In this document: positions 3,318 through 49,585 of the stretch, in pieces
Layout of the letters: every line of letters begins with the position of its first letter
How positions within the stretch are numbered: the first letter of the stretch is position 1
Sequence record: OR995200.1
Length of the DNA stretch: 64,000 bases
Source of the DNA: Escherichia phage JY01
Strand: one strand, 5' to 3'
Program-made: the position numbers and the translations under genes
Notes under the pieces: generated by a model
Seen by the model: the letters and a program-made list of their open reading frames with translations, nothing else
Database searches by the model: none
What the model was told of the DNA's origin: nothing

Positions 3318-3653
3318 TCACTTATAAAGACACGGAATAGCTTTATAGTGACAAGTAACGAATTTTTGTTTAATTTCTTTTGGCTGCTTAAGACCCAGAG
3401 CTACAAAAGGATGCGGAACATTTCGAATTTGACCAACTGGAAGAGAAGTCAAATCACCAACTTCGCAGAAACCTTCAGGAACATCAGGACCGACAGAGTG
3501 AACTACACACAGTTCAGGAACTTCACCTTGAACACGTTTACCGATAATAAGTCCTGATTCTGTAACTTCTTCATCACCGGCTTGTGCAGGTTCAGAAACT
3601 AAAATAACATATTCACCGACAGCACGAATTGGTAGCTGTTGTACTTCAGACAT
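3318..3653 (-). CDS. 31: gp31 co-chaperonin (GroES analogue for capsid protein folding)
   Basis: 111 aa; sequence and size as recalled for T4 gp31; synteny rIII-31-cd. Confidence 0.9.
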
Positions 3654-43092: not shown

Positions 43093-43123
43093 AATTATAC
43101 CACATCCTTGTGGTAAAGTAAAC
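43093..43123 (-). promoter_or_regulatory. T4-type early promoter module
   Basis: GTTTAC at 43118-43123 overlapping the gene 39 stop. Confidence 0.5.
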
Positions 43124-44943
43124 TACTGGCTCATCCATTCTTTACGAAGGTCAGCATTATCTCCCATGAGCATTTCAAAAAGATCTTTCCAGTTCTCAGG
43201 AAGTTTAACAACATCATATACTGGATTTTGAATCATCTCACGATATTCAGATTTTTCCAAAGAGCCAAGTCCCTTAATATAACGGATGCTATGTTTAGGT
43301 AGAGCATCTTTAGCACTCTCATATTCAGCGACTGTATAAAACCATTCTTGTTTTTTACCGACCTGGGCGATGATTACAGGAGTTTTGACAAAGCGAATTC
43401 GTCCTTGCTCAAACAATTCTGGCCAATTACTAAAAAATCCAAGAAGAGAAGGATAAATGCTTCCTAGACCATCATGGTCAGCATCAGTCATAATAGCAAT
43501 ATTATGATAATTCAAGTTTTCAGCTTTTTCACCAAGAACTAATCCAGTGATTGCGCAAATATCAAATAGTTCTTTGTTTTTAAGCATATCAGCATATGAC
43601 ATACCCCAACTGTTGAGAACTTTACCGCGCAATGGATAACCACCATGAAGTTCTTTATCACGAACATCAATAAGATATCCGATAGCAGAATCACCCTCAG
43701 TCAAGAAAAGAGTAGTATCAGCATCTTTACCGCAAAGATTCGCTTTGATATGTTTATGAACCTTTGCCTTAGAAGCCTTTTTAGCTGCTTTAGTTTCAGC
43801 TGCTTTTTCTGCTGCCAATTTACGAGCTAGTGCAGCTTCAATAATTGGCATCAGAATTGCTTCATTATTTAGAATAGCGCGTGAAATCTTTTTAGCGTCA
43901 AGTTGAATATGACTACGGATTTCACCAAATGGAGAAGTCAAACGCTCTTTAGTTTGAGAATCAAATCGCATGTTTTTCATATCACGAACAAACATAACGA
44001 TAGTCAAACATTCTTTAACACGTGCTTTAGTTACATCAATTTTGAACTTACGTTTGATTTGTGGAATAAGGTCTTCACAAATATCATCCATAACACAGTC
44101 AATGTGATGACCACCATTCTTAGTATGAATGTTATTGACGTATGTTAATTGACGAAAACCATCCGGTGAACGACCAACCGCAATAGAACAATTTTCTTGT
44201 TCTTGAACAATAGCATGCTCATCATATTGGCGTGCATATTTCTTAAAATTACCCTGAACCTTTTTACCGTTAAAGGTAAATTGAATATCAGGATAAACTA
44301 CTGCAAGTGTCTGGAGACGATCTAGTGTAATGTCAAGATAAACCTGAGATAGCTCATTAGTTTCAAATGACATAAAATCAGGAATGAAAGTAACACGAGT
44401 TCCTTTCCATTTTCCAGGAATATCTTCCCATGATTTATTTTCCATGCCATTTGAACAACGAACTACAATATTATTTTGACCGTCGCCAGTTTCACCGACA
44501 AACATAACAGAAAAAATGTTAGTTAAACTAGAGCCAACACCGTTCATACCGCCAGTGACGCGTTCTTTATCATCGCCGAAGTTACCACCTGCTTTTGGAA
44601 TAGTCCAGGCGGCAACAGGACCAGGAATTTCTTCACCAGTAGGTGTTTTAACCATCGCTTGTGGAATACCACGACCGTTATCTTCAACTGTTACTTGATT
44701 GTTTTTAATAGTAACGTTAATTTTATTTGCGAATTTAAACTTAGTACGAATACCTTCATCTACTGAGTTATCGATAATTTCATCAATAAGCTTAACAAGA
44801 CCAGGTACATACTGAACACTTTCCCATTTACCAAACAGAAAGCGCTCATGCATTTCATTAGCAGAAGAACCAATGTACATGCCGCTACGCTTTTTGATAT
44901 GTTCAATATCGCTCAGAATTTTAATTTCATTCTTAATCATCAC
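43123..44943 (-). CDS. 39: DNA topoisomerase II large subunit (GyrB-like), single fused ORF covering T4 genes 39 and 60
   Basis: 606-aa continuous ORF; N-terminal GHKL ATPase region and C-terminal Toprim region (LTEGDSAIGYL); no translational-bypass gap and no mobA. Confidence 0.9.
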   Translation of the reverse strand: MMIKNEIKILSDIEHIKKRSGMYIGSSANEMHERFLFGKWESVQYVPGLVKLIDEIIDNSVDEGIRTKFKFANKINVTIKNNQVTVEDNGRGIPQAMVKTPTGEEIPGPVAAWTIPKAGGNFGDDKERVTGGMNGVGSSLTNIFSVMFVGETGDGQNNIVVRCSNGMENKSWEDIPGKWKGTRVTFIPDFMSFETNELSQVYLDITLDRLQTLAVVYPDIQFTFNGKKVQGNFKKYARQYDEHAIVQEQENCSIAVGRSPDGFRQLTYVNNIHTKNGGHHIDCVMDDICEDLIPQIKRKFKIDVTKARVKECLTIVMFVRDMKNMRFDSQTKERLTSPFGEIRSHIQLDAKKISRAILNNEAILMPIIEAALARKLAAEKAAETKAAKKASKAKVHKHIKANLCGKDADTTLFLTEGDSAIGYLIDVRDKELHGGYPLRGKVLNSWGMSYADMLKNKELFDICAITGLVLGEKAENLNYHNIAIMTDADHDGLGSIYPSLLGFFSNWPELFEQGRIRFVKTPVIIAQVGKKQEWFYTVAEYESAKDALPKHSIRYIKGLGSLEKSEYREMIQNPVYDVVKLPENWKDLFEMLMGDNADLRKEWMSQ

Positions 44944-45009
44944 TTATCCTCGTTTGGTTTCGGGAATATTATACTCCGGTAATCATAAAGCTAAAGGCCC
45001 GAAGGCCTT

Positions 45010-45282
45010 TTATTTAAAACGGATAGTCGAATCCTTGAAGAATAGACCAGAACATACGGTTCCTTCTACTTTCTGCCCGGTAGGTCCAATAGCGCGAAAT
45101 CCAGTATGTTGGAAATCATTTTCAGAGCAACCGAACCAATTGTATCCAGTGATTTCAATATTAGTAAAACCGCTTGATGACAAAATTTTGGTTGCATTAT
45201 CAGCATCAGTACATCCTGCTAAAGACACTGCTAATACTAATGCTGCGATAGAACGATTAATATATTTCATAATTTCACTCAA
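45010..45282 (-). CDS. predicted lipoprotein
   Basis: 90 aa; signal peptide with lipobox LAGC. Confidence 0.5.
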   Translation of the reverse strand: MSEIMKYINRSIAALVLAVSLAGCTDADNATKILSSSGFTNIEITGYNWFGCSENDFQHTGFRAIGPTGQKVEGTVCSGLFFKDSTIRFK

Positions 45283-45646
45283 ATTTAATGGCTTGAAGAA
45301 GACTAATAATTCTCAAGCGACTTCTTTCATCTTTAACTGTAAAAGAAAGAGGGTCACCAGATTTCATAGTGATGATGCATCCAAAATCAAAATCTTCTGT
45401 AACTTCTTCGAAGAAGTCAAATTCTTCATCATAAATTAGAACATTACTCTGAAAGCTGTGAAGAATTTTTCCATCATTTCCAGATGCTGTACTAATCATT
45501 GTAACATTATGACCTTTCATATCTTCAACGATAAATTCGCTTGTAGATATTACTGCATTAATAGAACCGTTCCTATGAATAGCAGAAAATAGATATTTCT
45601 TTTCTTCACCTTCGCGAACACGATATTTCTTACCGATTTTAAACAT
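45275..45646 (-). CDS. hypothetical protein
   Basis: 123-aa ORF. Confidence 0.45.
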   Translation of the reverse strand: MFKIGKKYRVREGEEKKYLFSAIHRNGSINAVISTSEFIVEDMKGHNVTMISTASGNDGKILHSFQSNVLIYDEEFDFFEEVTEDFDFGCIITMKSGDPLSFTVKDERSRLRIISLLQAIKFE

Positions 45647-45648
45647 AA

Positions 45649-45825
45649 TTACCCTTTAAGTAAGTCGTAAAATCCACCATTCACATGCTTAGGAGCAGAA
45701 GGCCGACGAGTAGACAAACGATGACATTTAGGGCAAACATCATTTTCTCGTTCAGAAATCTTTTTAATTTTTTCATATTCATGCCCGCAATCTTCGGATT
45801 GGCATTTATAATCATACATTGGCAT
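45649..45825 (-). CDS. small zinc-ribbon protein
   Basis: 58-codon ORF MPMYDYKCQSEDCGHEY...CPKCH with two CxxC pairs; below track cutoff. Confidence 0.45.
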   Translation of the reverse strand: MPMYDYKCQSEDCGHEYEKIKKISERENDVCPKCHRLSTRRPSAPKHVNGGFYDLLKG

Positions 45826-45827
45826 AA

Positions 45828-46247
45828 TTATTCCTTAAAGTGTGCTTTCAACATCTGATACAAGGACCATGCCTGTTCATTATTTTCAATAGTAACTTTC
45901 ATGACTGGGAATTCTGTGAAATCTTCTATTTGTTCTTGCTCTTCCTGCTCTTGTTCTTCAGCTGCCTGATATGGATTTTCCACTTCATCAAAGAACCCAG
46001 CTTCGGTAGTAGAAAGCCAGATAAAGTTTTCGTCAAGGATATCACCATGTGTTGCATATCCAACTGTGCCAGTAGATGTCACAATTTTAGTAGGACGACC
46101 AAGATGGTCAACATCTAAAATTTTAAAAGGATGCATACCTAAACGGCGTGCATAGATTCCGTTATCAGTATGGTCTTTAATAAAATTTTCTTGAGCTTGT
46201 TTATTTTTAAATTGATACCATTTATTAACTTCAAATTTAATAGCCAT
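45828..46247 (-). CDS. hypothetical acidic protein
   Basis: 139 aa with an [10 protein letters not shown] acidic tract. Confidence 0.45.
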
Positions 46248-46462
46248 TAATAAATTTCCTTCCAGTAAGTTGTGCCATCTTCAGTAATTTCACGAAATAC
46301 ACCGTAAATTGGTTGTTTATCACCAACCTTTTCATACACATAAACCGAAGTCAAGTGAGTAAACTTGATGGTGTGTTCCTTTTGAACTACTACCAAATCT
46401 GGATCGAATAATACATCTTCAAATTCGTCATTAGTGCAATTCTGAACAATTTTACGTTTCAT
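46247..46462 (-). CDS. hypothetical protein
   Basis: 71-aa ORF. Confidence 0.4.
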
Positions 46463-46475
46463 TACAATTTCCTCA

Positions 46476-46757
46476 TTAATTGAACAGTGGAGCGATGCGT
46501 TTCAGAAGAGTAGCAGCACCTTTAGCGAATTTTACATCATGAAAAACAGTTTCTTCTTCCGTTACAACACGAACTTTAATGTTTTCACAATCCCAATTTT
46601 TACGAACAATCTTCAAAAGCTGCAGTAAATCTTTACATTCAGCAATATCGATAACACATCCACGAGAATCTTCCATTATCGCACGATAACCGTAAGCCAT
46701 ACCATAATCGTTGAAAGATTGCTCGATGATAATTAAGTTTTCCATTTTATTCTCCAA
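46476..46757 (-). CDS. hypothetical protein
   Basis: 93-aa ORF downstream of a palindromic promoter-like module. Confidence 0.45.
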   Translation of the reverse strand: MENKMENLIIIEQSFNDYGMAYGYRAIMEDSRGCVIDIAECKDLLQLLKIVRKNWDCENIKVRVVTEEETVFHDVKFAKGAATLLKRIAPLFN

Positions 46758-46852
46758 GTTATTTTCTGTATCAGTAGTTGATATTGATATAGTACCATAA
46801 TCAACTACTGATGTATATAGTTTTATGAAAAAATTTTAAACTTTATGCAAAT

Positions 46853-47272
46853 TTATGCTAAAGCTGCTTCGCACCATTTTTTAATTTGGAATTCAGGAAC
46901 TACCATGAACTGGCCTGCAAAAACAATATTGTAGAGCTTGACACCATCTTCTACCCAACGGTCCGAAATAAAACCAGCGACTTGATTCGTTGTCCATGGA
47001 GTTCCATCTGTTGCCGCCGCAATTGTGAATTTATGGTCTTTTACAACTAAAACTGAAGAACAAAGTTTCCATTTAAATGCGCTTTCTTCTGGCTCAATGA
47101 ACTGACTTGAGACATAACCAATGTTACCATCAGCGTCACGAACTTTAACCTCGTTACGACCAAAAACTGGATCACTTACAGAAAGAACTTCAACCAGCTT
47201 TCCTGCAACTTTAGAACGAGAAGCAACGGATACATATACGTAATCACCAGTAGAGAGATTTACAATATTCAT
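46853..47272 (-). CDS. paralog family member A (shared C-terminal domain)
   Basis: 139 aa; N-terminal ASRSKVAGKLVEV and C-terminal GFISDRWVEDGVKLYNIVFAGQF shared with the adjacent ORF. Confidence 0.55.
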   Translation of the reverse strand: MNIVNLSTGDYVYVSVASRSKVAGKLVEVLSVSDPVFGRNEVKVRDADGNIGYVSSQFIEPEESAFKWKLCSSVLVVKDHKFTIAAATDGTPWTTNQVAGFISDRWVEDGVKLYNIVFAGQFMVVPEFQIKKWCEAALA

Positions 47273-47281
47273 AATAATTCC

Positions 47282-47755
47282 TTAAGCTTTACGAGGAGAA
47301 GCATAACGAGTGATTTCAGATTCTTCAACAACCCGGAAGTCACCTAAGAATACGATATTGTAGAGCTTTTCACCATCTTCAACCCATTGGTCTGTGATGA
47401 AGCCACACATCCTATCAGTTTTACTTGGACCAGCGAAATCATCAATATAATCGAATTCTTCATCAGTTACAAATTCAACGCCTTTACACAACGCCCATTT
47501 AAATTGTGCATTAGACTCAGTGGATTCAACTTCTTCAACAGAAGCAAAATGAGAGCTAACACGAGTTTCCAGAAATTTAGGACTTACGTAAGCGTACTGA
47601 GTTTCAGTTTTTCCAGAACTAGGAATGATTCGAACTTTAACTTCTATAACACGACCAGTACCATTAGTACGAAGTCCTACCACTTCAACTAGACGACCTG
47701 CAGCTTTAGAACGAGATGCAGACGATACACGCTTAATTTCACCGATAGTAATCAT
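47282..47755 (-). CDS. paralog family member B
   Basis: 157 aa; ASRSKAAGRLVEV and GFITDQWVEDGEKLYNIVFLGDF motifs. Confidence 0.55.
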   Translation of the reverse strand: MITIGEIKRVSSASRSKAAGRLVEVVGLRTNGTGRVIEVKVRIIPSSGKTETQYAYVSPKFLETRVSSHFASVEEVESTESNAQFKWALCKGVEFVTDEEFDYIDDFAGPSKTDRMCGFITDQWVEDGEKLYNIVFLGDFRVVEESEITRYASPRKA

Positions 47756-47827
47756 AATTTTTCTCTCTTTATTGTTAAGATTTATTCTCCATGAGAGCCA
47801 TTATAACAGGCTCTCTATAAAGTAAAC

Positions 47828-48322
47828 TTAATTAAGGATATTAATTACTGCACTACGTGGAACTACACTAAAATCACCTGCATGAACAACGTTCAGAAGT
47901 TCAACACCGTCTTCAATCCACTGATCAGTTACCCATCCACTCACTGGACCTGCGAACGGACGTCGAATTGAAACAGCTTTACACAACAAATCAGTAGGCT
48001 CAATAGGCTTAACCAGAGTACCGTACATACAAGCGATATCCATATCAATACAGATGTCTTTAACGGGTTCTACTTCTTCAATCAACAGTTCAAAGTCGGT
48101 GCTTGGAAGGGCGGTAGTAGAAATTGTACCGTATGAATTTTTAATTTCTAAGAATAACCAAGAGCCTTCAACTTGTTTGATGAAGTTAACAATAGTGAAA
48201 CTATTACCTTGAGTGGCGCCTAAAATTTCACAAAACTTTTCATAAGCTCGCACTGAAGCACCATACCAGTTGATTTGCTTTTCGTCTTTCAGGATGTAAG
48301 TAGCTGTAGTACTGATATTCAT
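47828..48322 (-). CDS. paralog family member C (C-terminal domain only)
   Basis: 164 aa; C-terminal GWVTDQWIEDGVELLNVVHAGDF matches A and B. Confidence 0.55.
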   Translation of the reverse strand: MNISTTATYILKDEKQINWYGASVRAYEKFCEILGATQGNSFTIVNFIKQVEGSWLFLEIKNSYGTISTTALPSTDFELLIEEVEPVKDICIDMDIACMYGTLVKPIEPTDLLCKAVSIRRPFAGPVSGWVTDQWIEDGVELLNVVHAGDFSVVPRSAVINILN

Positions 48323-48334
48323 GATGTTTTCCCC

Positions 48335-48838
48335 TTAATCTAAGGTAATAAAGCCTTTTAATTCGGCATGTGACTTGCGGAACATTACTTGATGACCGCC
48401 AATGATAACTTGGTCATCAGGTACTTCGTATACAGCGAGATAAAATCCTTTAGAAGCTAATTCTTCACGCTCTTCTCGTGTGAACCATCTCATCATATCA
48501 TATTCGCTAGCGAAAGCAAAATGATAAAGAGCTATAAACCATCCTGGAATATAGTGATCTACGCCTACATATTCTTCTTTCTCAAAATTAGTATTAATTG
48601 CTATATTAGCATTTTTAACTAATAGTTTGTCTTCGTGCGGAAGAGGAATTCTTTTATTATCATTACTATGATGCATAAAATTAGGTCTGTCATAACCTAC
48701 GTGTAATAACCACTCTTCACTCCATGAATCTATTATACTCCTGTACGGAGTTATTTGAACACAAAGATCTCGACGTATTGTTATAGCATCTTCATAATTA
48801 AGAATACTAAATGATGATTCAACACGATAAATTTTCAT
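48335..48838 (-). CDS. hypothetical protein
   Basis: 167 aa from MKIYRVESS; the track ORF start lies inside the promoter module. Confidence 0.45.
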   Translation of the reverse strand: MKIYRVESSFSILNYEDAITIRRDLCVQITPYRSIIDSWSEEWLLHVGYDRPNFMHHSNDNKRIPLPHEDKLLVKNANIAINTNFEKEEYVGVDHYIPGWFIALYHFAFASEYDMMRWFTREEREELASKGFYLAVYEVPDDQVIIGGHQVMFRKSHAELKGFITLD

Positions 48839-48862
48839 TTTATTATCCTCAGTAGCTATGGT

Positions 48863-48895
48863 GTTATAATACCACAACTAACCGAGGAAGTAAAC
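48863..48895 (-). promoter_or_regulatory. T4-type early promoter module
   Basis: GTTTAC at 48890-48895 with a TATAAT-containing -10. Confidence 0.5.
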
Positions 48896-48901
48896 AACTT
48901 T

Positions 48902-49585
48902 TTATCGTTTTGTTGGAAGAGACAGAGGATCGCACTCTTCCTCTGACGGAGCATCTTCAAGACCCATAGCGTATCGCAAAGCATACTTCATCATCAGGAT
49001 GTCTTTCGCGCAGTCATGAATAGAATCATGTGCAACGAATCCATCTAAAGTTCCTTTTGGAAGAGGACACGTGGTCATATCACGAACAAGCAGAAGTGCT
49101 TCAATTCTGGTACGAATATCACGCTGATTCCAGAATTTACAAGGTTCTAACTTAAATGTATCAAGCTCATTCTCGGAAACGCCGTTAAGACGTTGAATAT
49201 CGCGAATGAGATCGACTAAAATTGGAAAATCAAACGACATTCCACGGCACCAACCTTGAGATTTCCAAGGATCGATATTATGCGCATTGATGTAATCATT
49301 AAATTTTGCAATACCATCGATAGTGCTTACATCTTCATCTGATGGCGCAATATTTTTTCGAGCTTCAGGAGATTGATTCTTCCACCATTCGATAGTGCTT
49401 TTAGTAAAAAGACGATGTCCTTTTTGACTTTTTAAGTCAAATTTAATTTTAATGCCACGTGAAACTAGTTCATCGAATGTTTCAACAACTTCCGGGTTAG
49501 GGTCAAAAGCAATTACAGCCAAATCAATAACAGCTGCTTTTTCACCGCTTCCCATCGTTTCAAAATCTATAATAAAATCAAACAT
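48902..49585 (-). CDS. dexA: exonuclease A (DnaQ-like 3'-5' exonuclease)
   Basis: 227 aa, same as T4 DexA; N-terminal FDFIIDFETMG exonuclease motif. Confidence 0.85.
   Translation of the reverse strand: MFDFIIDFETMGSGEKAAVIDLAVIAFDPNPEVVETFDELVSRGIKIKFDLKSQKGHRLFTKSTIEWWKNQSPEARKNIAPSDEDVSTIDGIAKFNDYINAHNIDPWKSQGWCRGMSFDFPILVDLIRDIQRLNGVSENELDTFKLEPCKFWNQRDIRTRIEALLLVRDMTTCPLPKGTLDGFVAHDSIHDCAKDILMMKYALRYAMGLEDAPSEEECDPLSLPTKR

What the first reader, a model, noticed from the sequence alone, without database searches (positions are those of the whole stretch)
45649..45825. 58-aa zinc-ribbon protein missed by the ORF track
MPMYDYKCQSEDCGHEYEKIKKISERENDVCPKCHRLSTRR... has two CxxC pairs spaced like an FmdB-type zinc ribbon. 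Small zinc ribbons in early regions often bind RNA polymerase or nucleic acids. It sits in the variable 39-to-dexA interval.
Basis: seen in the sequence. Interest (0 to 1): 0.35.

Follow-up and report, generated by a model that had tools for sequence, protein, structure and literature searches.

The report
Known T4 39.2 GroEL-modulator gene

Summary
The ORF exists as described, at 45649-45825 on the minus strand. It has a good Shine-Dalgarno site and is packed 2 nt from both neighbouring genes. The window is a Tequatrovirus, 99.5% identical to Shigella phage Sf23. The ORF is the positional and sequence ortholog of T4 gene 39.2: it lies between goF and 39.1/39 and is 81% identical to resequenced T4.

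It passes the curated cut-offs of Pfam Zn_ribbon_8 and NCBIfam TIGR02605 (FmdB family). dN/dS against T4 is 0.14. In 67 homologs, three cysteines are invariant and the fourth is Cys or His. One correction: the first pair is Cx4C, not CxxC.

T4 Gp39.2 (NwgI, 58 aa) was shown by Ang & Georgopoulos (2012) to modulate GroEL/GroES. The RNA-polymerase or nucleic-acid idea, and the database label "FmdB-like transcriptional regulator", have no support here.

Three extras emerged:
- The family also contains M. tuberculosis Ruc, a redox-activated chaperone (profile comparison 98%).
- The closest non-T4-like relatives, in one jumbo-phage clade, sit directly upstream of a GroES-family gene.
- The old T4 reference carries a frameshifted 45-aa version of 39.2.

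Verdict: already known, low interest.

The parts
45649..45825 (-). CDS of the gene 39.2 ortholog (58 aa plus stop), a Zn_ribbon_8 / FmdB-family protein
   Evidence: ORF and translation. Pfam and NCBIfam scores above the curated cut-offs. 81% aa identity to the 58-aa gp39.2 of resequenced T4 MT984581, in the same position. dN/dS 0.14.
45831..45836 (-). Shine-Dalgarno sequence AAGGAA, 5 nt upstream of the ATG. It lies inside the last codons of goF, whose TAA stop (45828-45830) ends 2 nt before the 39.2 start.
   Evidence: Read directly from the sequence. The same junction is present in T4.
45787..45804 (-). First zinc knuckle, Cys8-x4-Cys13 (CQSEDC)
   Evidence: C8 is invariant in 67/67 homologs. 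Position 13 is Cys in 58 and His in 9. In the aligned set the 2-residue insertion (Cx4C) is shared only with T-even and Tegunavirus 39.2 and with the jumbo-phage group next to Cpn10.
45724..45735 (-). Second zinc knuckle, Cys31-Pro-Lys-Cys34
   Evidence: C31 and C34 are invariant in 67/67 homologs. It lies 17 residues after C13, as in Ruc and TIGR02605.
45652..45699 (-). C-terminal tail, residues 43-58 (SAPKHVNGGFYDLLKG). It carries the family-wide G-[FYW]-[YF]-[DE] motif and is predicted to be flexible.
   Evidence: Identical in T4. G51 is present in 66/67 homologs and the aromatic pair at 52-53 is conserved. pLDDT is about 57, against about 85 for residues 1-40. It aligns with GSGFYRTD of actinobacterial Ruc orthologs.
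45828..46247 (-). goF (comC-alpha) ortholog, the gene immediately upstream in the same transcription direction
   Evidence: PHROG 622 and goF families. Annotated goF in Sf23 and T4.
45275..45646 (-). 123-aa goF-like paralog (PHROG 622) immediately downstream. Its ATG lies 2 nt after the 39.2 stop. Absent from T4.
43123..44943 (-). Gene 39 (topoisomerase II large subunit), the downstream anchor of the synteny
   Evidence: ORF. Annotation in Sf23 and T4.
3318..3653 (-). Gene 31, the phage GroES-like co-chaperonin. It is the functional partner of host GroEL, the machine that Gp39.2 modulates in T4.
   Evidence: 111-aa ORF. Sf23 gp57 is annotated 'head assembly chaperone; GroEL cochaperone; similar to T4 gp31' at the collinear position.

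Best explanation
This is the ortholog of bacteriophage T4 early gene 39.2 (product Gp39.2, also called NwgI). It encodes a 58-residue protein with two parts. Residues 1-40 form a four-stranded zinc ribbon whose metal is held by Cys8, Cys13, Cys31 and Cys34. Residues 41-58 form a short flexible tail carrying the conserved GGFYD motif.

It is translated from the early leftward transcript. Its own Shine-Dalgarno site sits 2 nt behind the goF stop, so translation is probably coupled to goF.

Its most likely job is the one shown for T4 Gp39.2. It acts on the host GroEL/GroES chaperonin and shifts GroEL toward the 'open' state that accepts a co-chaperonin (host GroES or phage Gp31). Chaperonin-dependent folding, above all of the major capsid protein, then still works on hosts whose GroEL is a poor match for the phage. 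It is therefore a host-range or fitness accessory rather than an essential gene.

Shown here: the gene is real, its family, its orthology, purifying selection, ligand conservation and the predicted fold. Taken from the literature: the GroEL/GroES phenotypes of T4 Gp39.2. Inferred: that this 81%-identical ortholog does the same, that zinc is bound, and which surface touches GroEL.
For: - Orthology: same position (cef-goF-39.2-...-39.1-39) as in T4. 81% aa identity to the 58-aa gp39.2 of resequenced T4, with residues 43-58 identical. The BFVD top structural hit is T4 Q01434.
- Coding and selection: dN/dS 0.14, 885 phage records with a match, and the Shine-Dalgarno site with coupled junctions.
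- Zinc ribbon: Pfam and NCBIfam scores above cut-off. Ligand positions are conserved in 67 homologs. The AlphaFold model has four beta strands in residues 1-40 at pLDDT of about 85 and a low-confidence tail.
- Function, from the literature: T4 39.2 encodes a 58-aa peptide that subtly modulates GroES/GroEL and shifts GroEL toward the open, GroES-binding conformation. A T4 39.2 deletion is completely blocked on specific groEL mutant hosts (PMC5153855; PMC4396842; primary paper Ang & Georgopoulos, Genetics 2012, PMID 22234860, not held in the library).
- Independent context: the relatives sharing the unusual Cx4C knuckle, outside the T4-like phages (T-even, Tegunavirus), are 66-69-aa proteins of one jumbo-phage clade. 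Each lies immediately upstream (overlapping or within about 20 nt) of a Cpn10/GroES-family gene. None of 80 other viral FmdB-like genes has a GroES or gp31 relative within 2.5 kb.
- The only other studied family member, M. tuberculosis Ruc, is also a proteostasis factor. The Ruc paper reports that ruc sits beside groES/groEL in some phyla. Ruc-type proteins are homologous to the phage group at hhalign probability 98%, E=1.8e-13.
- The phage in the window also carries gene 31.
Against: - No experiment exists for this phage's allele. It differs from T4 Gp39.2 at 11 of 58 residues, all within residues 3-42.
- I could not read the primary 2012 paper. The mechanism comes from the authors' later summary and from one citing paper.
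- No structure of a Gp39.2-GroEL complex exists (no PDB relative by sequence, or by fold), so direct binding and the contact surface remain unproven.
- The jumbo-phage synteny is a single lineage, and those proteins match only residues 1-40 well.
- The gene is not next to gene 31 in this genome.
Confidence: 0.8

Rival explanations
1. It is a transcription regulator, or an RNA-polymerase or nucleic-acid-binding zinc ribbon. This is the first reader's suggestion and the database label 'FmdB-like transcriptional regulator'.
For: Name propagation in RefSeq and PHROGs (phrog_1076 'FmdB-like transcriptional regulator'; annotations). It lies in an early region with goF and motB. Foldseek lists RbpA, an RNA-polymerase-binding protein, among the top hits (2m6o, E=0.39, TM about 0.5).
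Against: No Foldseek PDB hit reaches E<=0.001. The list is a mix of generic zinc ribbons such as MCM, ribosomal proteins and aRF1. The held literature contains nothing that characterises FmdB as a regulator. From my own knowledge, the FmdB name rests on gene-neighbourhood inference in Methylophilus. Both experimentally studied family members act in protein folding.
Confidence: 0.05
2. It is a Ruc-like stand-alone holdase. Oxidation of the zinc-binding cysteines releases zinc and turns the protein into an ATP-independent chaperone. That chaperone keeps unfolded proteins soluble and hands them to DnaK or GroEL. The GroEL phenotypes in T4 would then be indirect.
For: Homology to mycobacterial Ruc orthologs over 53 columns, including the GFY motif (hhalign 98%; same Pfam family). 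The cysteine layout matches Ruc (Cys 8/11/29/32, one Zn). Both have a flexible C-terminal tail.
Against: Ruc needs its long disordered C-terminal half. RucNterm (1-49) cannot prevent aggregation, and Gp39.2 has only about 17 residues after the ribbon. The T4 effects are described as modulation of the GroEL open/closed equilibrium. From my memory of the 2012 abstract, they are also allele-specific.
Confidence: 0.1
3. It is a chance ORF or a decayed remnant with no function.
For: Short ORFs abound in this AT-rich DNA: 56 of at least 25 aa in 4.5 kb. The T4 reference record shows a truncated 45-aa version.
Against: dN/dS 0.14, with stops in all other frames. Family scores are above the curated cut-offs. 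It is conserved across Tequatrovirus, Tegunavirus, Krischvirus and Vequintavirinae. The T4 truncation is absent from the 12 other T4 records in the search; the one read in full has the intact 58-aa gene.
Confidence: 0.01

Closest known systems
Bacteriophage T4 Gp39.2 (NwgI), modulator of GroEL/GroES (Ang & Georgopoulos, Genetics 2012, PMID 22234860)
   Same: Same genomic slot (goF-39.2-39.1-39), same length (58 aa), 81% identity, identical C-terminal 16 residues, and the same Cx4C...CxxC ligands.
   Different: Eleven substitutions within residues 3-42. In this phage an extra 123-aa goF-like gene separates 39.2 from 39.1. The function of this allele has not been tested.
Mycobacterium tuberculosis Ruc (Rv0991c), a redox-regulated chaperone (Becker et al., mBio 2020, PMC7448276)
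   Same: Same Pfam family. The M. celatum ortholog scores 56.5 bits on PF09723, and the profile-profile probability is 98%. Both start MP-x-Y-x-Y-x-C, have four Cys with a 17-residue spacer, carry a G-F-Y motif after the ribbon, and end in a flexible tail. Both are tied to chaperone systems.
   Different: Ruc has CxxC in both knuckles and a long Ser-rich disordered tail that its holdase activity requires. It cooperates with DnaKJE and is switched on by oxidation. Gp39.2 has a 2-residue insertion in knuckle 1 and a tail of only about 17 residues, and it is reported to act on GroEL. In the held library I found no paper that links the two proteins.
Pfam PF09723 Zn_ribbon_8 / NCBIfam TIGR02605 'FmdB family zinc ribbon protein'
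   Same: Scores above both curated cut-offs. The conserved N-terminus and ligand spacing are present.
   Different: The first knuckle is Cx4C. The tail is short rather than long and low-complexity. The 'regulatory protein' meaning of the family name is untested for this protein, and the two characterised members contradict it.
Jumbo-phage 66-69-aa zinc-ribbon proteins encoded directly upstream of a Cpn10 gene (Klebsiella phage fENko-Kae01 ENKO_297/298; Yersinia phage fHe-Yen9-04 g260/g261)
   Same: Same Cx4C first knuckle and about 50% identity over residues 1-35/40. Both have a chaperonin connection.
   Different: Their tail differs (…GDKGA-FR[FY]KGNWFNTTGRY). They sit next to the co-chaperonin gene, whereas 39.2 and gene 31 are about 42 kb apart in this window. 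No function has been tested.
T4 Gp31 / E. coli GroES co-chaperonins
   Same: Same pathway, namely the GroEL-dependent folding needed by the phage. Gene 31 is present in the window.
   Different: There is no sequence or fold relationship. Gp31 caps GroEL as a heptamer, whereas Gp39.2 is a small accessory that changes GroEL's readiness to bind the cap.

Membership tests
T4 gene 39.2 (NwgI) orthologous group | Located in the early leftward cluster between goF and 39.1/39 | tested here: met
   The window order is cef, goF, 39.2, 123-aa ORF, 39.1, 39 on the minus strand. This matches Sf23 and T4.
T4 gene 39.2 (NwgI) orthologous group | Full-length sequence similarity to the 58-aa T4 Gp39.2 | tested here: met
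   81% identity over 58/58 residues to MT984581 gp39.2. The literature gives 58 aa for T4 Gp39.2.
T4 gene 39.2 (NwgI) orthologous group | Modulates GroEL/GroES: suppresses groEL/groES alleles, and a deletion is blocked on certain groEL hosts | not testable with these tools
   Known only for T4 and, from my memory of the 2012 abstract, for the RB69, RB43 and RB49 homologs. Summarised.
Pfam PF09723 Zn_ribbon_8 / NCBIfam TIGR02605 FmdB family | Score above the curated gathering or trusted cut-off | tested here: met
   45.7 bits against 34.4. 44.9 bits against 31.3.
Pfam PF09723 Zn_ribbon_8 / NCBIfam TIGR02605 FmdB family | Begins at the initiator Met and has two Cys pairs separated by 17 residues | tested here: met
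   M1-P2-x-Y4-x-Y6-x-C8, C13, 17 residues, then C31xxC34. The first pair is Cx4C rather than CxxC.
Pfam PF09723 Zn_ribbon_8 / NCBIfam TIGR02605 FmdB family | Binds one zinc ion through the four cysteines | not testable with these tools
   Shown for Ruc by ICP-MS. Here there is only ligand conservation and a zinc-ribbon-like model.
Ruc-type redox-regulated holdase | Long intrinsically disordered hydrophilic C-terminal domain, required for activity | tested here: inconclusive
   The tail is only residues 41-58, with low pLDDT of about 57. The Ruc paper reports tails of 7-61 residues among homologs but shows that Ruc 1-49 is inactive.
Ruc-type redox-regulated holdase | Oxidation-activated prevention of protein aggregation | not testable with these tools
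   Needs a biochemical assay.
Transcription regulator (the label 'FmdB-like transcriptional regulator') | Sequence-specific DNA binding or RNA-polymerase binding with an effect on transcription | not testable with these tools
   No such evidence was found in the literature searched. The structural resemblance to RbpA is not significant.

The most novel reading that the evidence does not exclude
T4 Gp39.2 and mycobacterial Ruc belong to one ancient family (Zn_ribbon_8/FmdB). Its general role would be as an accessory of chaperone machines, not as a transcription regulator. Under this reading, the Cx4C subgroup shared by the T4-like phages (T-even, Tegunavirus) and one jumbo-phage clade is a dedicated chaperonin cofactor. 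In the jumbo phages it would form a two-gene module with the phage's own GroES. I found no paper in the held library that connects Gp39.2 with Ruc. If this is right, thousands of 'FmdB-like transcriptional regulator' annotations are mislabelled, and the phage protein offers a minimal 58-residue model for how the family touches a chaperone.
Probability: 0.35. Interest if true: 0.45.

Novelty: already known. Interest (0 to 1): 0.15.

Why it matters
For the scan it matters little. The ORF is a named, annotated gene whose T4 ortholog has a published function.

Three practical points have some value:
- The label 'FmdB-like transcriptional regulator' that RefSeq and PHROGs attach to this gene is contradicted by the only two experimentally studied family members, which are both protein-folding factors. 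It should not be used to infer a transcription role.
- The T4 reference records (NC_000866/AF158101, UniProt Q01434) carry a frameshifted 45-aa version. Homology transfer from them truncates the conserved tail.
- The homology to Ruc, and the zinc-ribbon-plus-GroES gene pair in jumbo phages, give independent computational support to the chaperonin role. They also suggest simple experiments on how a 58-residue protein can tune GroEL.

Tried and rejected
- Solved-structure relatives. A sequence profile search of the PDB gave only chance zinc-finger matches such as Aart and Fpg. Foldseek against the PDB gave no hit at E<=0.001. No template and no GroEL complex exists.
- Reading the primary paper. 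The DOI and PMC3296260 are not held, so I used the authors' own later summary and a citing paper.
- Promoter and terminator scan of 44800-49500. It found 16 promoter-like sites against 16.9 expected and 2 terminator-like sites against 2.4 expected, so nothing interpretable.
- Whether viral FmdB-like genes in general sit near co-chaperonin genes. I scanned 1,767 ORFs within 2.5 kb of 80 diverse viral family members with GroES, gp31 and jumbo-phage Cpn10 queries and found no hit. The link is confined to the Cx4C jumbo-phage clade.
- A wider locus search. A profile search of viral contigs with A3 failed because no stretch was conserved enough. With A2 it returned only the T4-like and Vequintavirinae clades already seen.
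- The M. tuberculosis Ruc sequence itself was not retrieved. I used M. celatum, whose cysteines at 8/11/29/32 match the positions named in the Ruc paper.
- A resemblance between the GGFYDLL tail and the GroES/Gp31 mobile loops (GGIVL / GLII) was considered. I dropped it as too loose to count as evidence.

Full report
**Observation**

ORF length alone is uninformative in this AT-rich DNA: 56 ORFs of at least 25 aa overlap the surrounding 4.5 kb.

The signals around it are those of a real gene:
- An AAGGAA Shine-Dalgarno sequence lies at 45831-45836, 5 nt before the ATG.
- The upstream gene's TAA ends 2 nt before that ATG.
- The ORF's own TAA is followed after 2 nt by the ATG of the next gene. 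Both junctions read TAATTATG.

One detail in the finding needs correcting. The first cysteine pair is Cx4C (C8-QSED-C13). Only the second is CxxC (C31-PK-C34).

**Where we are**

The 1.5 kb around the ORF is 99.5% identical to Shigella phage Sf23, and 80-99% identical to most of the other 690-odd matching records, chiefly Escherichia and Shigella phages. In Sf23 the ORF is annotated as gp126, 'putative FmdB-like regulatory protein'. It is flanked by goF and cef upstream, and downstream by a hypothetical gene, 39.1 and the large topoisomerase II subunit. In PP01 and ime09 the same gene is called 39.2.

In the T4 reference the order is cef, goF, 39.2, 39.1, 39.

**Orthology with T4 39.2, and a reference-sequence problem**

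The old T4 record (NC_000866/AF158101, derived from M89919) annotates 39.2 as only 45 aa. Aligned with the window, it carries a one-base indel after codon 40. Beyond that point the conserved tail …PKH-NGGFYDLLKG can still be read in another frame.

Twelve other T4 records in the search (T4T, resequenced isolates and deletion derivatives) are only 96-97% identical to the old record across these 301 nt. MT984581, the one I read, annotates a 177-nt, 58-aa gp39.2.

That protein is 81% identical to the window's, with residues 43-58 identical. Thirty-five of 177 nucleotides differ, split 10/5/20 by codon position. dN = 0.127 and dS = 0.92, so dN/dS = 0.14. Every alternative frame is interrupted by stops in one or both phages. 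The gene is under clear purifying selection.

**Family**

- The protein passes the curated cut-offs of Pfam PF09723 Zn_ribbon_8 (45.7 bits against 34.4, E=6.7e-12) and NCBIfam TIGR02605 'FmdB family zinc ribbon protein' (44.9 against 31.3).
- tblastn finds it in 885 phage records. These include Tegunavirus (47% identity), Krischvirus (44%), Vequintavirinae (37-43%) and, over the N-terminal 35 residues only, two jumbo phages.
- In an alignment of 67 homologs from a 5.8-billion-protein search, C8, C31 and C34 are invariant. Position 13 is Cys in 58 and His in 9. G51 is present in 66/67, and an aromatic pair follows it.

- An AlphaFold2 model built on this alignment has four beta strands in residues 1-40 at pLDDT of about 85, and a tail (41-58) at about 57.
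- Foldseek finds the T4 protein Q01434 first in the viral library (E=1.3e-5).
- Nothing in the PDB reaches E<=0.001. The best entries are generic zinc ribbons such as the MCM N-terminal domain, RbpA and ribosomal proteins.
- By sequence there is no solved relative either.

**Function**

T4 gene 39.2 is not an orphan. Ang & Georgopoulos (Genetics 2012, PMID 22234860) named its product NwgI. I could not open that paper.

Georgopoulos's own 2015 account states three things (PMC5153855):
- Genetic and biochemical data suggest that it shifts GroEL toward its 'open' conformation, which can bind host and phage co-chaperones.
- A T4 39.2 deletion, unlike wild type, is completely blocked on specific groEL mutant hosts.

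Mattenberger et al. 2015 summarise it the same way (PMC4396842). The window also carries gene 31, the phage GroES analogue, at 3318-3653.

I therefore assign the ORF as the 39.2 ortholog. The chaperonin-modulator mechanism is my best explanation. It is inferred by orthology and was not tested here.

**Two further lines that bear on function**

First, the relatives outside the T4-like phages (T-even, Tegunavirus) that share the unusual two-residue insertion in knuckle 1 (Cx4C) are 66-69-aa proteins of one jumbo-phage clade. The clade comprises Klebsiella phage fENko-Kae01, Yersinia phage fHe-Yen9-04 and several metagenomic contigs.

In every case the zinc-ribbon gene lies immediately upstream (overlapping or within about 20 nt) of a Cpn10/GroES-family gene (PF00166, E=2e-18). 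All share one synteny block, so this counts as a single lineage.

The association is not a general property of the family, however. Among 80 diverse viral FmdB-like genes pulled by a degenerate DNA pattern, none of 1,767 ORFs within 2.5 kb matched GroES, gp31 or the jumbo-phage Cpn10.

Second, the family has another characterised member. M. tuberculosis Ruc (Rv0991c) has the following properties (PMC7448276):
- It has an N-terminal zinc ribbon (Cys 8, 11, 29, 32; CxxC-N17-CxxC) that binds one zinc.
- It has a disordered C-terminal half that is required for activity.
- Oxidation activates it as a holdase that feeds DnaKJE.
- It belongs to the HrcA heat-shock regulon.
- According to the Ruc paper, ruc sits beside groES/groEL in some phyla.

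A mycobacterial ortholog (M. celatum) has cysteines at the same positions and is flanked by galU-like, SAF-domain and mscL genes. It scores 56.5 bits on PF09723. A profile of 15 actinobacterial orthologs aligns with the phage profile over 53 columns, including GGFYD against GSGFYRTD, at hhalign probability 98% and E=1.8e-13.

The Ruc paper mentions neither phages nor Pfam. I found no held paper that links the two proteins.

**Rivals**

- Transcription regulator or RNA-polymerase binder. This rests on a propagated name and a non-significant fold resemblance to RbpA. Both studied family members are proteostasis factors.
- Ruc-like autonomous holdase. This is possible by homology. However, Gp39.2 has only about 17 residues after the ribbon, and Ruc residues 1-49 alone are inactive.
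- Chance ORF. Excluded by the selection and conservation data.

**Verdict**

The structural interpretation (FmdB-type zinc ribbon) is right, and the functional guess is not supported. The feature is already known as the ortholog of T4 39.2/NwgI, so interest is low.

The residual novelty lies in side observations:
- the likely mislabelling of the family as transcription regulators;
- the Gp39.2-Ruc homology;
- the zinc-ribbon/GroES gene pair in jumbo phages;
- the frameshifted T4 reference entry.

Noticed in passing
L002 (NC_000866.4) 2703-2840, compared with window 45649-45825 and L003 (MT984581) 661-837: The T4 reference records (NC_000866/AF158101, from M89919) annotate a 45-aa 39.2, and UniProt Q01434 calls it a '5.1 kDa protein'. 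The cause is a 1-nt indel. Twelve other T4 records (T4T, resequenced isolates and deletion derivatives) are only 96-97% identical to the reference over these 301 nt, and MT984581, the one read in full, encodes the complete 58-aa protein. This is probably an old sequencing error that still propagates.
   Followed up: yes
L009 1501-1994; L010 2001-2517; L011-L016: In one jumbo-phage clade (Klebsiella phage fENko-Kae01, Yersinia phage fHe-Yen9-04 and metagenomic contigs), a 66-69-aa Zn_ribbon_8 gene lies directly upstream of a Cpn10/GroES gene. It has the same Cx4C first knuckle as T-even 39.2. None of 80 other viral FmdB-like genes has a GroES or gp31 relative within 2.5 kb.
   Followed up: yes
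window 45275-45646 (-): A 123-aa ORF sits between 39.2 and 39.1 and is absent from T4. It is a paralog of the goF-like family (PHROG 622, E=2e-28), the same family as the 139-aa goF ortholog at 45828-46247. It looks like a local duplication or insertion in the variable interval.
   Followed up: partly
window 45010-45282 (-): The 39.1 ortholog is 90 aa here and has a lipoprotein-like signal (…LAVSLAGC). It has a weak LPAM hit and is annotated 'putative lipoprotein' in some relatives. It overlaps the upstream ORF by 8 nt. The T4 reference annotates only a 65-aa internal fragment, whereas resequenced T4 has 86 aa.
   Followed up: partly
window 43123-44943 (-): Gene 39 is a single ORF of about 605 aa, followed directly by rIIA.1 and rIIA in the near-identical Sf23. 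This phage therefore lacks the T4 split into genes 39 and 60 with the mobA insertion, and so also lacks the gene 60 translational bypass.
   Followed up: partly
alignment A3 (P0013, P0016, P0026, P0027, P0033-35, P0044, P0073; Krischvirus-like): In nine homologs the second ligand is His instead of Cys (C-x2-H), and column 38 is Cys in nine sequences (the eight of the nine checked by eye have it, after the second knuckle: …CPECGKEC…). This may be an alternative zinc-ligand set. Vequintavirinae homologs have CxC instead of CxxC in the second knuckle.
   Followed up: partly
L026 4001-4309 and alignment A4: Mycobacterial Ruc (Rv0991c) orthologs belong to the same Pfam family as the phage protein and align with it over 53 columns (hhalign 98%). 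The Ruc paper mentions neither Pfam nor phages. The family label 'FmdB-like transcriptional regulator' conflicts with both characterised members.
   Followed up: yes
window 3318-3653 (-): Gene 31, the GroES-like co-chaperonin (111 aa), lies in the same window about 42 kb from 39.2. The two chaperonin-related phage genes are not linked in T4-type genomes.
   Followed up: partly
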